Source of the DNA: Escherichia coli O127:H6 str. E2348/69
Lineage (GTDB): Bacteria; Pseudomonadota; Gammaproteobacteria; Enterobacterales; Enterobacteriaceae
Length of the DNA stretch: 64,000 nucleotides
Assembly: GCF_000026545.1 (NCBI RefSeq)
Contig: NC_011601.1
Reading direction: 5' to 3' (one strand)
A program made the position numbers. Below, one piece after another: positions 38,901-41,900 of the stretch (positions within the stretch are counted from its first letter, which is position 1; each line of letters begins with the position of its first letter).

Positions 38901-41900
38901 TTGCGGCGGTATTTCGGTGTGACGGCGCAGGTTCCGTACACCGATGTCTGGACGCATAAACCGGTGCAGTACTATCCAGGGAAACATCCGTGCGAAAAAC
39001 CGGCAGAAATGCTGCAGCAGATAATCAACGCGAGCAGTCGTCCGGGAGACCTGGTTGCAGATTTTTTTATGGGTTCAGGTTCAACGGTAAAAGCGGCGAT
39101 GGCACTGGGGCGTTGTGCGATTGGTGTTGAGCTGGAGACAGGACGTTTTGAACAGACAGTCAGGGAAGTTCAGGATTTAATCGTTTGAAACGGATGGGAT
39201 TGCAGAATTAATTACGCACCATTATTATTCTGCTACCGGCCCTTTAGCTCAGTGGTGAGAGCGAGCGACTCATAATCGCCAGGTCGCTGGTTCAAATCCA
39301 GCAAGGGCCACCATCACATACCGCCATTAGCTCATCGGCAGAGAGCGTCAGCTTTCGAAACTGGCTGTGTGGGGCCCGGGTCCCCGATGGCAATCCATTA
39401 TTTGCATTATGCGTTGTTAGCTCAGCCGGACAGAGCAATTGCCTTCTAAGCAATCGGTCACTGGTTCGAATCCAGTACAACGCGCCATATTCATTCTTCC
39501 AGATTTCTTCCGGCAGAGCCTTATACTGGAATATACCTGGCTCAGGATATTGTTGAAAATATTATATGTTTGTCAAAAATAAAAGTTCTGTTAAGTATTG
39601 ATTGAGTGTTTGTTATACGGTCTAATGGTTTTTTCAGTATTAAATATTTATCATTCATATGGTGTGGGTAGAGTGAATATTGATGAGGCGTCGGGGTGTT
39701 TCATCCTTAGGCAGCGTATTGATATAGTCAATGCAGCACGAGCAAAGGCCTTCAGCCGTTTGACAGTTTTGTTCTGTACTCCTGATCGTCTTTCGGGAAG
39801 AGACGTTATTCTTCTGAATAGTGATGCTATACAGAGGGTTTGCGATGAGTTCATGGTTGCTAATTCAGAATTATTTGCTCTTGTTCAGGAGTACAACAGA
39901 ATAGCCAGGACCTGTGGTATGGATGAACTTCGGATTACTCATCTGGGGTAGATACATATCTGGATTATCACCTGTTACGGTAAAAAGTGATTGCTTACTG
40001 TTTTTGTGAATGGCATTGCAGCAGCCGGATAATGTCAGTGCTGGCTGACTGTGTACTGGTGGCGGGTGTGGTGGTTGTTGCTTTCCCGTTGCTGAAAAAG
40101 AAAACGCCAGACTGTTAGCCGGAGAAATTTTTAAATACTTCACAATTCAGGCGGTTGACTGTTGTCTGGTTTGCGGGGAGTTTGTTAAAAGAAACTGGCA
40201 TGGTGAATCCACCTGTGCGGAGGGGCAATCAGCGAGTAGGTATATGGGATAATCGCGGATTCAGGTGCTGGTACTGAATTCACCGGGAGGCACCCGGCAC
40301 CATGCAATGGCACATAGCGCCACTCTCCAGCCCCTCTCCGGAGGGGCTGTTTATATTGATTTTGTCAGATGTGAGTAAACTCCTTATGGACTTTGTTGTT
40401 TTAGTCCATAAGGACATATTTGCAGAGTGCAACGGTTATTAAAGCATTCATTCAATACGTTATCTGTATTTGTAGGGCATTCCTGGCTGTTTTTGATTAA
40501 ATTCCAGAATGTTTTATTGAATGGTACTACGTTGTAAATGGTTACAGGTAGCACTTTGTTATTGAGCATGATACCTGTGTGAGTCAGTGTAAATATACTT
40601 TCAGGAGGTAAGAAAGCATCCGATTGATACCAGATTATTAATTTTATTTTACTCCATATGACTGAAAAAGATATTCCGCATGATGGCTGGATAACTGTAT
40701 CAATCACAATCCACTTCATTTAGTTTCCTTGTTTATGCCTTGCTGGTGATGTTCTGAAAAGTATAAATGATATTTTTGATTGTAAACCATAGAGCAGAAT
40801 TATTTTTCTGATGTTGTTTATTGTTTATTTAAATGCAGGGTGGTTTATATCTCGTCTTGTAGTTTATCCATGCATATCTGCTTGATGATGAGGTTTTTAT
40901 TTAAGGTATGGTTTTGTGTTTTTTCTGTATTACATGTCAGGTATTTTAAAGAATTATTTTTCAGATGGTGGAAAGAACCATGGCATTTAAACACTATGAT
41001 GTTGTCAGGGCGGCGTCGCCGTCAGATCTTGCGGAAAAGCTGACACATAAACTGAAAGAGGGCTGGCAGCCGTTTGGTAGTCCGGTGGCCATAACCCCTT
41101 ATACCCTGATGCAGGCGATTGCAGCAGAAGGTGATGTGGTCGTCAGTGGTGCAACTGAGCCAGAGTGGTACTACGTCATCGTACTGGCCGGGCAATCCAA
41201 TGCCATGGCTTACGGTGAAGGGCTTCCGCTTCCGGATTCATACGATGCGCCCCATCCGCGCATTAAGCAACTGGCCCGTCGTAACACAGTGACTCCCGGT
41301 GGTGAAGTATGCGTATTTAACGACATCATTCCTGCTGACCATTGTCTGCATGATGTTCAGGATATGAGTACGATTAACCATCCCCGGGCTGACCTGAGCA
41401 AAGGGCAGTACGGCTGTGTCGGACAGGGCTTACATATTGCCAAAAAACTGCTTCCGTATATCCCTAATAATGCGGGGATCCTGCTGGTACCATGCTGTCG
41501 TGGTGGTTCGGCATTCACCCAGGGCACGGAGGGGACATTCAGCGAGTCCACGGGGGCCAGTCAGGATTCGGCTCGCTGGGGAGTGGGTAAGCCGTTATAT
41601 CAGGATCTGCTTTTCCGCACGAAGGCAGCATTGCAGAAAAACCCGAAAAACGTTTTGCTGGCGATATGCTGGATGCAGGGGGAATTCGATATGACGAATG
41701 CCAGTTACGCCCAGCAGCCAGCAGCATTTCTTGCAATGGTACAGCAGTTCCGTGCTGACTTTGCCGGGCTGGCGGCGCAGTGTCACGGTGGAAGTCCGGC
41801 ATCAGTCCCCTGGATTTGTGGCGACACGACATACGCGTGGAAACAAGAACACGGTACGCAATATGAAGTGGTATATGGTGCATATAAAGGTAAAGAATCC

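What the first reader, a model, noticed from the sequence alone, without database searches (positions are those of the whole stretch)
39488..40964. Unknown genes at the position where Stx phages carry stx (between the tRNA cluster and nanS-p)
In Stx phages the toxin genes sit between the Q/tRNA region and nanS-p. Here the same slot holds AT-rich DNA with a 117-aa ORF (39598-39951), then a 28-codon hydrophobic ORF (40032-40118, MSVLADCVLVAGVVVVAFPLLKKKTPDC). About 210 nt of ORF-poor sequence follows, ending in a good terminator (40329-40355), and then a convergent 111-aa ORF (40384-40719). None has a motif I can recognise. Genes in this slot are expressed with the late operon or from their own promoters and are frequently host-interaction factors. 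The terminator-capped non-coding tail could be an sRNA, since prophage-encoded Hfq-binding sRNAs have been reported from O157 prophages.
Basis: inference. Interest (0 to 1): 0.5.

Follow-up and report, generated by a model that had tools for sequence, protein, structure and literature searches.

The report
Prophage cargo slot: iraL plus sRNA
The "unknown genes" in the Shiga-toxin slot of this E. coli prophage are mostly known: the stress-response regulator gene iraL, an STnc100-family small RNA, a truncated DUF3927 membrane-peptide gene and one small conserved gene that genome annotations miss.

Summary
The window is prophage PP5 of EPEC E2348/69. Comparison with phage 933W confirms the slot. 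39496-40139 sits where stx2AB sits, and 40359-40978 sits where the anti-sRNA AsxR sits.

The contents are not unknown:
- The convergent 111-aa ORF is IraL. It has the same RefSeq protein accession as the tested RssB anti-adaptor of UPEC CFT073, and the published iraL mRNA 5' end matches at 31 of 32 bases.
- The terminator-capped tail is an STnc100-family sRNA (Rfam 123.6 bits, gathering 47). Compensatory changes support its fold. EHEC relatives bind Hfq (EcOnc27/sRNA103).
- The 28-codon ORF is the C-terminal part of a DUF3927 gene whose 5' end has been replaced.
- The 117-aa ORF is really a 92-aa gene starting at GTG 39673. It is under purifying selection, belongs to phrog_2873, is predicted to form a helical hairpin, and is not annotated in RefSeq. 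Its function is unknown.

The sRNA guess was right. "No recognisable motif" was not. The same module occurs in CFT073 at 96.9% identity. Novelty is low. Open points are what orf92 does and whether this sRNA copy is active.

The parts
39673..39951 (+). orf92: a conserved 92-aa protein-coding gene (GTG start). It is not annotated in RefSeq for E2348/69 or CFT073. It belongs to phrog_2873; function unknown. The predicted fold is two long antiparallel helices joined by a beta-hairpin.
   Evidence: Diverged homologues in the same slot have the same GTG start and the same 279-nt length (L004 5032-5310, annotated WP_001017777.1; L005 5071-5349). L004 has a stop codon just upstream of the GTG. NG86 dN/dS is 0.25-0.26 with dS about 1. 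pN/pS is 0.38-0.42 (Fisher p about 1e-6) in this frame only; the other frames give about 1 and contain 4-13 stops. phrog_2873 E 9e-58. AF2 pLDDT 83.
39987..40118 (+). DUF3927 small membrane-peptide gene, truncated or replaced at its 5' end. Possible products are 43 aa from GTG 39987 or 28 aa from ATG 40032. One hydrophobic helix followed by KKK remains.
   Evidence: PF13064 90.2 bits, E 8e-26. phrog_1470 matches residues 12-40 only. Full-length relatives are about 52 aa with two hydrophobic segments. Homology to them starts at about 40015-40020, which is codon 12, 'SSRIM'. RefSeq annotates the 87-nt form in E2348/69 and the 132-nt form in CFT073.
40131..40168 (+). Conserved motif upstream of STnc100 units (consensus GAAATgTTAAATnCCTCACAATTCAGnnnGTTGAy). 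Candidate promoter or 5' leader.
   Evidence: It is present upstream of all 11 copies compared, including copies inside a tandem array that sit directly after the previous terminator. blastn homology to other copies starts at 40131-40140. The function is inferred.
40169..40358 (+). STnc100-family sRNA gene (RF02076), with a closing helix, three internal hairpins and an intrinsic terminator.
   Evidence: cmscan 123.6 bits against gathering 47, E 2e-27, full model 1-206. The consensus fold of 11 copies has 40 pairs, 8 of them with compensatory changes; 96.6% of cells are paired against 40-54% when partners are slid. MFE -71.2 kcal/mol, z -2.05. Internal ORFs are not conserved.
40328..40355 (+). 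Intrinsic terminator of the sRNA and rightward cargo unit.
   Evidence: 9-bp stem with 7 GC pairs, then TTTATATT. Only three U follow the stem directly here, whereas several other copies have six.
40384..40719 (-). iraL: an IraM-family anti-adaptor that binds RssB and stabilises sigma-S.
   Evidence: NF007393 162 bits against cut-off 121. About 68% identical to K-12 IraM, PDB 8twd, over residues 1-78, by count from the printed alignment (E 9e-32). Same protein accession, WP_000871291.1, and 100% tblastn identity with the potB-prophage gene of CFT073. That gene is the iraL of Hryckowian et al. 2014 (PMC4045071).
40720..40790 (-). iraL 5' UTR and sigma-70 promoter. TSS at 40752; -10 TATACT at 40760-40765; TTTACA at 40781-40786.
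   Evidence: The RACE-mapped 5' end of CFT073 iraL mRNA (PMC4045071) matches 40721-40752(-) at 31 of 32 bases. The hexamers were read directly from the sequence.

Best explanation
The region is the cargo ('moron') slot of the defective lambdoid prophage PP5 of EPEC E2348/69. It lies downstream of the Q-like antiterminator and the tRNA genes and upstream of the nanS-p esterase and the lysis genes. It holds two convergent units.

Leftward unit. iraL is transcribed from its own sigma-70 promoter. Its product is identical to CFT073 IraL. That protein binds the N-terminal domain of the adaptor RssB, which blocks delivery of sigma-S to ClpXP and so raises RpoS in growing cells. This mechanism is established for the identical protein. 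That it operates in EPEC is inferred.

Rightward unit. It contains orf92, the remaining part of a DUF3927 membrane-peptide gene, and an STnc100-family structured sRNA ending in an intrinsic terminator. orf92 encodes a conserved 92-aa protein predicted to form a helical hairpin. I infer it is a protein-binding modulator, but its target is unknown. The sRNA most likely does two things, both inferred. Its terminator stops cargo and tRNA-promoter transcription from running into the esterase and lysis genes in the lysogen, while Q-modified polymerase reads through during lytic growth. The released RNA of about 190 nt may act in trans, as do its Hfq-bound EHEC relatives EcOnc27/sRNA103.

Compared with Stx2 phage 933W, orf92 plus DUF3927 occupy the stx2AB position and iraL occupies the AsxR position. 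The STnc100 element between them is the shared backbone piece.
For: - Identity of the locus: 100% match to E2348/69. Window coordinate plus 1,248,000 gives the NC_011601 coordinate, by the tRNA and CDS positions in the Pearl Mizrahi GFF. The PasC probe hits at 42860-42884, which marks prophage PP5.
- Slot mapping against 933W and the empty-slot phage PPwrbA_EH2201.
- IraL.
- STnc100.
- Family literature: STnc100 lies 75 nt downstream of stx2B, and the Hfq-bound EcOnc27/sRNA103 maps there, partly overlapping the STnc100 prediction (PMC12370729; PMC12711010; PMC4104026; PMC7873438). EDL933 has 11 transcribed copies, one confirmed by Northern blot (PMC5331693).
- orf92 is coding.
- DUF3927 truncation.
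- The same module in CFT073 is 96.9% identical over 39199-41199.
Against: - No expression data for this copy of the sRNA were found. No entry for the tRNA26-E2348C_1245 intergenic region appears in the EPEC RIL-seq and RNA-seq supplementary tables that are held (some files were cut when stored). The authors did not name it among the Pas sRNAs.
- This copy has an A.G mismatch in hairpin 1 (C to A at 40211, unique among the 11 copies) and only three U directly after the terminator stem. Hfq binding or stability may therefore be weak.
- The promoter scan found no more sigma-70-like sites than expected by chance (6 found, 5.2 expected).
- iraL read counts in EPEC are low (baseMean 11.7).
- The function of orf92 is unsupported by any homology. 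Foldseek found no hit with E <= 0.001 in PDB or BFVD.
- The DUF3927 remnant may not be translated.
Confidence: 0.85

Rival explanations
1. The rightward unit is mostly decaying remnant DNA. On this view the sRNA copy, the DUF3927 fragment and perhaps orf92 are non-functional leftovers of recombination in a defective prophage, and only iraL is maintained.
For: - DUF3927 has lost its 5' half.
- The middle tRNA is degenerate: 22.2 bits here against 45.5 in CFT073, with about 20 substitutions between 39337 and 39409.
- The sRNA has a stem mismatch and a short U tract.
- ISEc13 and IS200 separate the esterase from the holin.
- No RIL-seq entry was found for the intergenic region.
Against: - orf92 shows clear purifying selection across copies that are 28-32% diverged, and it is intact in CFT073 and in phage mEp460.
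- The sRNA still scores 76 bits above the Rfam gathering threshold and keeps every helix.
- The module is about 98% conserved in more than 800 complete genomes.
Confidence: 0.2
2. STnc100 here is only a cis element, that is a 3' UTR plus insulating terminator or a recombination joint between cargo cassettes. It would then not be a trans-acting Hfq-dependent regulator.
For: - It always sits at the 3' end of whatever cargo lies upstream: stx2B, DUF3927, a tolA-like gene, or the tRNAs alone.
- It occurs in tandem arrays (L005 5639-6618).
- Homology breakpoints between phages recur at its edges, at about 40131-40140, 40306 and 40354.
- No RIL-seq partners were found for this copy.
Against: - The multi-helix core is nearly invariant and is supported by covariation. 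That is far more structure than a terminator needs.
- EHEC copies crosslink to Hfq. Overexpression of sRNA103 changes fimZ and espA transcript levels.
- The distant relatives PasD1 and PasD2 have many RIL-seq targets.
Confidence: 0.3
3. The slot encodes a new toxin, effector or anti-phage defence function that stands in for Shiga toxin.
Against: - No Pfam toxin domains.
- No PADLOC hits.
- orf92 is a 92-aa helical hairpin with no structural match at E <= 0.001.
- The two other proteins are identified as DUF3927 and IraL.
Confidence: 0.05

Closest known systems
iraL locus of the potB prophage of UPEC CFT073 (Hryckowian et al. 2014, PMC4045071)
   Same: The order is the same: tRNA-Ile, tRNA-Arg, tRNA-Arg, (orf92), DUF3927, STnc100, iraL(-), DUF1737/esterase. 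DNA identity is 96.9% over 39199-41199. The IraL protein is identical. The mapped mRNA 5' end matches at 31 of 32 bases.
   Different: E2348/69 has a 15-nt deletion after 40120, a C-to-A change at 40211 in the sRNA, a decayed middle tRNA, a full-length esterase and IS insertions downstream. CFT073 has a truncated DUF1737 gene instead of the full esterase.
stx2AB - EcOnc27/sRNA103 (STnc100) - AsxR dyad of Stx2 phages 933W and Sp5 (Tree et al. 2014)
   Same: The backbone is the same: tRNAs, cargo, STnc100 with terminator, a convergent element, then the SASA esterase.
   Different: The cargo here is orf92 plus a DUF3927 remnant instead of stx2AB. The convergent partner is a protein gene, iraL, instead of the 53-nt anti-sRNA AsxR. 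There is no AsxR or AgvB hit in 36000-46000 at E <= 1. The two STnc100 copies are only about 70% identical.
PasD1/PasD2 sRNAs of E2348/69 (Pearl Mizrahi et al. 2021; Zhu et al. 2026 preprint)
   Same: They are prophage late-region sRNAs that follow a DUF3927 gene and are structurally related to STnc100. The PasD locus gives a sub-threshold STnc100 hit of 37.7 bits.
   Different: PasD1 and PasD2 lie in prophages PP4 and PP2. The PasD probe and seed sequence are absent from this window. This copy is a canonical STnc100 (123.6 bits) and is not one of the named Pas sRNAs.
IraM of E. coli K-12 (e14 prophage; PDB 8twd)
   Same: Same protein family, NF007393. About 68% identical over residues 1-78, by count from the printed alignment (E 9e-32).
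   Different: About 71% DNA identity. According to the literature, IraM responds to Mg starvation and contacts both RssB domains, whereas IraL acts in log phase and contacts only the N-terminal domain.

Membership tests
STnc100 sRNA (Rfam RF02076) | Covariance-model score at or above the gathering threshold (47 bits) over the full model | tested here: met
   123.6 bits, model positions 1-206 of 206, E 2e-27.
STnc100 sRNA (Rfam RF02076) | Consensus fold: closing helix, internal hairpins and a 3' terminator, supported by covariation | tested here: met
   40 pairs, 8 with compensatory changes; 96.6% of cells paired against 40-54% when slid. This copy has one A.G mismatch in hairpin 1.
STnc100 sRNA (Rfam RF02076) | Expressed as a discrete RNA of about 160-210 nt; Hfq association as reported for the EHEC members | not testable with these tools
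   No entry for this intergenic region in the held EPEC RIL-seq and RNA-seq tables. Family members are expressed in EHEC.
PasD sRNAs | PasD sequence, including the probe target and the UGUGAG seed region | tested here: not met
   0 matches to the PasD probe with up to 3 mismatches. PasD1 and PasD2 map to PP4 and PP2.
IraM/IraL anti-adaptor family (NF007393) | Profile score above the curated cut-off (121 bits) | tested here: met
   162 bits, residues 1-110. PDB 8twd IraM E 9e-32.
IraL (CFT073 type) as distinct from IraM (K-12 type) | >=95% identity to CFT073 iraL, with its promoter and 5' UTR | tested here: met
   Identical protein, WP_000871291.1, at 100%. 5' UTR matches at 31 of 32 bases. Only about 71% DNA identity to K-12-type iraM.
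IraL (CFT073 type) | Binds RssB and stabilises sigma-S | not testable with these tools
   Shown for the identical protein in CFT073 (PMC4045071). Not tested in EPEC.
DUF3927 (PF13064) | Profile score above the gathering threshold (25 bits) | tested here: met
   90.2 bits, E 8e-26, for the 43-aa form.
DUF3927 (PF13064) | Full-length architecture of about 52 aa with two hydrophobic segments | tested here: not met
   Homology to full-length members begins at codon 12. The first hydrophobic segment and the original start codon are replaced.
Shiga toxin / AB5 toxin | RIP A-subunit and SLT beta B-subunit domains | tested here: not met
   No such Pfam hits for any ORF in the region. stx2AB is present in 933W at the equivalent place.
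AsxR/AgvB anti-sRNAs (the convergent partner in EHEC dyads) | Rfam RF02703 or RF02702 match convergent to STnc100 | tested here: not met
   No hit at E <= 1 in 36000-46000. 933W gives AsxR at 88.1 bits.
phrog_2873 (phage protein family of unknown function) | Profile match over the whole protein | tested here: met
   E 9e-58, residues 1-92 aligned to profile positions 17-108 of 108.

The most novel reading that the evidence does not exclude
DUF3927 plus STnc100/PasD may be an old, co-inherited unit: a two-helix membrane-peptide mRNA whose 3' UTR is the structured sRNA. STnc100 units, each with a conserved upstream motif of about 40 nt, may also act as portable cassette boundaries. Each unit would combine a promoter, an RNA and a terminator. 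Their near-invariant cores would serve as the homologous-recombination joints through which lambdoid prophages swap cargo at this site, including stx2, iraL and orf92. Separately, orf92 may be a new small modulator of a host protein.
Probability: 0.2. Interest if true: 0.5.

Novelty: already known. Interest (0 to 1): 0.2.

Why it matters
It shows that the toxin slot of a non-Stx prophage in EPEC and UPEC carries a regulator of the host general stress response (IraL) and a member of the sRNA family that flanks stx2 in EHEC. This fits the published picture of this site as a hotspot for regulatory cargo. In practice it flags a conserved 92-aa gene that RefSeq annotation misses in two reference pathogens. 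It also flags a third STnc100/PasD-type sRNA gene in E2348/69 that the RIL-seq study did not name.

Tried and rejected
- PasD2 identity. The Zhu et al. preprint says PasA and PasD2 flank an esterase gene, so I first suspected the sRNA was PasD2. I rejected this. The PasD, PasA and PasB probes are absent and the PasC probe hits at 42860-42884, so the prophage is PP5.
- Function of orf92. Pfam, NCBIfam, PADLOC and PDB sequence searches gave nothing. The AF2 model is a generic helical hairpin; Foldseek against PDB and BFVD gave no hit with E <= 0.001 (best matches: the EmrA hairpin and prefoldin beta). A profile search and an exhaustive search found only a tiny family, named only in Escherichia and Shigella records, with 19 representatives among 1.84 billion proteins.
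- Small ORF inside the sRNA. I looked for a conserved ORF starting at the conserved ATG. Lengths range from 10 to 53 codons and the ATG is lost in one copy, so I rejected it.
- Sigma-70 promoter for the rightward unit. Consensus matches were no more frequent than expected by chance.
- CsrA preprint. The 2026 preprint that mentions PasD2 together with CsrA could not be read.
- Whether DUF3927 always precedes STnc100. It does so in three module types (this one, 640R1 copy a, and PasD) but not in the other copies examined.
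Full report
**Where the window comes from.** The 1477-bp region is 100% identical to E. coli E2348/69 (EPEC O127:H6). The tRNA and CDS coordinates in the annotation file of Pearl Mizrahi et al. 2021 show that window coordinate plus 1,248,000 gives the NC_011601 coordinate. The PasC Northern probe of that paper hits 42860-42884, while the PasA, PasB and PasD probes are absent. The window is therefore prophage PP5.

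**Checking the observation.** GC falls to 0.30-0.44 inside the region, against 0.50-0.57 in the flanks.

In phage 933W the order is ileZ-argN-argO, stx2A, stx2B, STnc100 (75 nt after stx2B), AsxR on the opposite strand, then the SASA esterase. blastn shows three blocks shared with the window: the tRNAs (39087-39495), STnc100 (40140-40306) and the esterase (from 40979). So 39496-40139 takes the place of stx2AB, and 40359-40978 takes the place of AsxR. An "empty" version of the slot, with tRNAs, STnc100 and esterase only, exists in phage PPwrbA_EH2201.

**The convergent 111-aa ORF is iraL.**
- It scores 162 bits against NCBIfam NF007393, the IraM anti-adaptor family (cut-off 121).
- It matches K-12 IraM (PDB 8twd) with E 9e-32.
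- RefSeq gives it accession WP_000871291.1. That is the same accession as the gene in the potB prophage of UPEC CFT073, and tblastn identity is 100%.
- That CFT073 gene is iraL. Hryckowian et al. [quoted passage not shown]
- The RACE-mapped 5' end of iraL mRNA matches 40721-40752 on the minus strand at 31 of 32 bases. This places the TSS at 40752. A TATACT -10 lies at 40760-40765 and a TTTACA lies 15 nt further upstream (read).
- E. coli genomes split into a group at >=95% identity (iraL type, about 1400 genomes) and a group at about 71% (K-12 iraM type, about 3300 genomes).
- In the EPEC data iraL has low read counts (baseMean 11.7). It forms 11 RIL-seq chimeras with Spot 42 (sheet not identified).

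**The "non-coding tail" is an STnc100-family sRNA.**
- Rfam RF02076 matches 40169-40358 at 123.6 bits (gathering 47, E 2e-27, full model).
- I aligned eleven copies from this window, CFT073, three phages and strain JNE141411. The consensus has a closing helix (GCAUGGUG/CACCAUGC), three internal hairpins and the terminator.
- Of 40 pairs, 8 show compensatory changes. 96.6% of cells are paired, against 40-54% when the 3' partners are slid. None of 500 shuffles reached the observed covariation score.
- An ATG inside the conserved core opens ORFs of 10-53 codons and is lost in one copy, so the element is non-coding.
- In the literature this family has 11 transcribed copies in EDL933, one confirmed by Northern blot (PMC5331693). 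The Hfq-bound EcOnc27/sRNA103 maps immediately downstream of stx2B and partly overlaps the STnc100 prediction there (PMC4104026, PMC7873438, PMC12711010, PMC12370729).
- Zhu, Shabalina and Storz (2026 preprint) relate STnc100 to PasD. A PasD locus gives only 37.7 bits with the STnc100 model, so the present copy is a canonical STnc100 and not a PasD.
- There are caveats for this copy. It has a unique C-to-A change at 40211 that breaks a pair in hairpin 1. Only three U follow the terminator stem. I found no entry for this intergenic region in the held EPEC RIL-seq tables.

**The 28-codon ORF is part of a DUF3927 gene.** The 43-aa form starting at GTG 39987 matches PF13064 at 90.2 bits. It also matches phrog_1470, whose label is "TciB-like"; that label is an annotation, not a tested function. 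Full-length members are about 52 aa with two hydrophobic segments; one example lies just upstream of PasD (L009 2688-2846). Homology to these members begins at about 40015-40020, at codon 12, "SSRIM". The first hydrophobic segment and the original start codon have therefore been replaced here. The C-terminal half of DUF3927 and STnc100 are co-linear with a copy in phage 640R1 at 73.7% identity over 40019-40351. A DUF3927 gene also precedes PasD. The pair is therefore old. It is not universal, since most other STnc100 copies I examined follow different genes.

**The 117-aa ORF is a real gene, but of 92 aa.** Diverged homologues lie in the same late-region slot of two other E. coli prophages (L004, annotated WP_001017777.1, and L005). 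They share a GTG start equivalent to 39673 and the same 279-nt length. L004 has a stop codon just upstream of that GTG. NG86 dN/dS is 0.25-0.26 with dS about 1. Only this frame shows an excess of synonymous change (pN/pS 0.38-0.42, Fisher p about 1e-6). The other two frames give about 1.0 and carry 4-13 stops. Third codon positions carry twice as many differences as first or second positions. The protein matches phrog_2873 (E 9e-58). RefSeq does not annotate it in E2348/69 or CFT073. The family is tiny, and the few hits that carry a name are from Escherichia or Shigella. AlphaFold2 (pLDDT 83) predicts two long helices, residues 3-35 and 50-81, joined by a beta-hairpin. Foldseek finds only generic helical hairpins, and PADLOC finds nothing. 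Its function remains unknown. From size and fold alone I infer a protein-binding modulator.

**How the locus most likely works.** iraL is an autonomous cargo gene that raises RpoS by sequestering RssB. This is established for the identical protein and inferred for EPEC. The rightward genes end at the STnc100 terminator. In a lysogen this would keep transcription from cargo or tRNA promoters out of the esterase and lysis genes, while Q-modified polymerase reads through during induction (inferred). The released RNA may act in trans like its EHEC relatives, but that is unproven for this copy.

**Rival explanations.** Partial decay of the rightward unit (0.2) and a purely cis role for STnc100 (0.3) remain open. 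A new toxin or defence gene in this slot is unlikely (0.05).

**Novelty.** The components and the architecture of the site are all published. The same module occurs in CFT073 at 96.9% identity. What is new is minor: an unannotated conserved gene, the truncation of DUF3927, and a third STnc100/PasD-type sRNA gene in E2348/69 that has not been named.

Noticed in passing
window 42832-42909 (-): PasC sRNA (E2348CN_0005; NC_011601 1290909-1290832). It is antisense and lies just 3' of the esterase gene. The published Northern probe matches 42860-42884 exactly. The esterase 3' region also forms 668 RIL-seq chimeras with PasA.
   Followed up: partly
window 39321-39397 (+): The middle tRNA of the ileZ-argN-argO cluster is degenerate in E2348/69. 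It scores 22.2 bits, below the tRNA gathering score, and ARAGORN does not call it. About 20 substitutions relative to CFT073 are concentrated between 39337 and 39409, while the flanking tRNAs are intact.
   Followed up: partly
L005 (E. coli JNE141411) 5639-6618 and 3667-3879: Four STnc100 units lie in a head-to-tail array with a period of about 260 nt, just upstream of the esterase gene. A fifth lies after a tolA-like cargo gene in the same prophage. All score 119-172 bits. I did not see a tandem array mentioned in the papers I read.
   Followed up: partly
window 40131-40168 and the 40 nt upstream of every STnc100 copy in L002-L007: A conserved motif, GAAATgTTAAATnCCTCACAATTCAGnnnGTTGAy, precedes the Rfam model start in all 11 copies. 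It may be a promoter or part of the RNA. It contains CUCACA, the target motif reported for the PasD seed.
   Followed up: no
window 40188-40313 (-): RefSeq annotates a partial 'hypothetical protein' pseudogene antisense to the STnc100 RNA, in both E2348/69 and CFT073. It is probably a spurious homology-based call over a structured RNA gene.
   Followed up: no
L002 (phage mEp460_ev081) 4689-4887: This STnc100 copy is identical in its core to the window copy, but homology breaks at window 40306 and the terminator is replaced by unrelated sequence. Several other phages have homology breakpoints at the same position.
   Followed up: partly
window 43265-45234: ISEc13 (IS4 family) and IS200C are inserted between the esterase/PasC and the holin gene. 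The IS200 5' UTR gives the Rfam STnc490 hit at 44643-44766.
   Followed up: no
window 37478-37668 (+): About 170 nt downstream of the Q-like gene (DUF1133, phrog_753 'anti-termination protein Q-like') there is a strong hairpin followed by eight T, at about 37647-37675. It looks like tR' of a short PR' transcript, the equivalent of lambda 6S RNA or StxS. Sub-threshold Rfam hits to isrK and AgrB overlap it.
   Followed up: no
window 40353-40689 (-): The EPEC RIL-seq table lists 11 chimeras between iraL mRNA (E2348C_1245) and Spot 42 (p 2e-5; sheet not identified). This hints at control of this anti-adaptor linked to catabolite repression.
   Followed up: no
window 24662-24713 (-), 33262-33428 (+), 60269-60467 (+): Other Rfam hits above gathering score in the prophage: DicF, sok (beside hokD) and IS009.
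   Followed up: no
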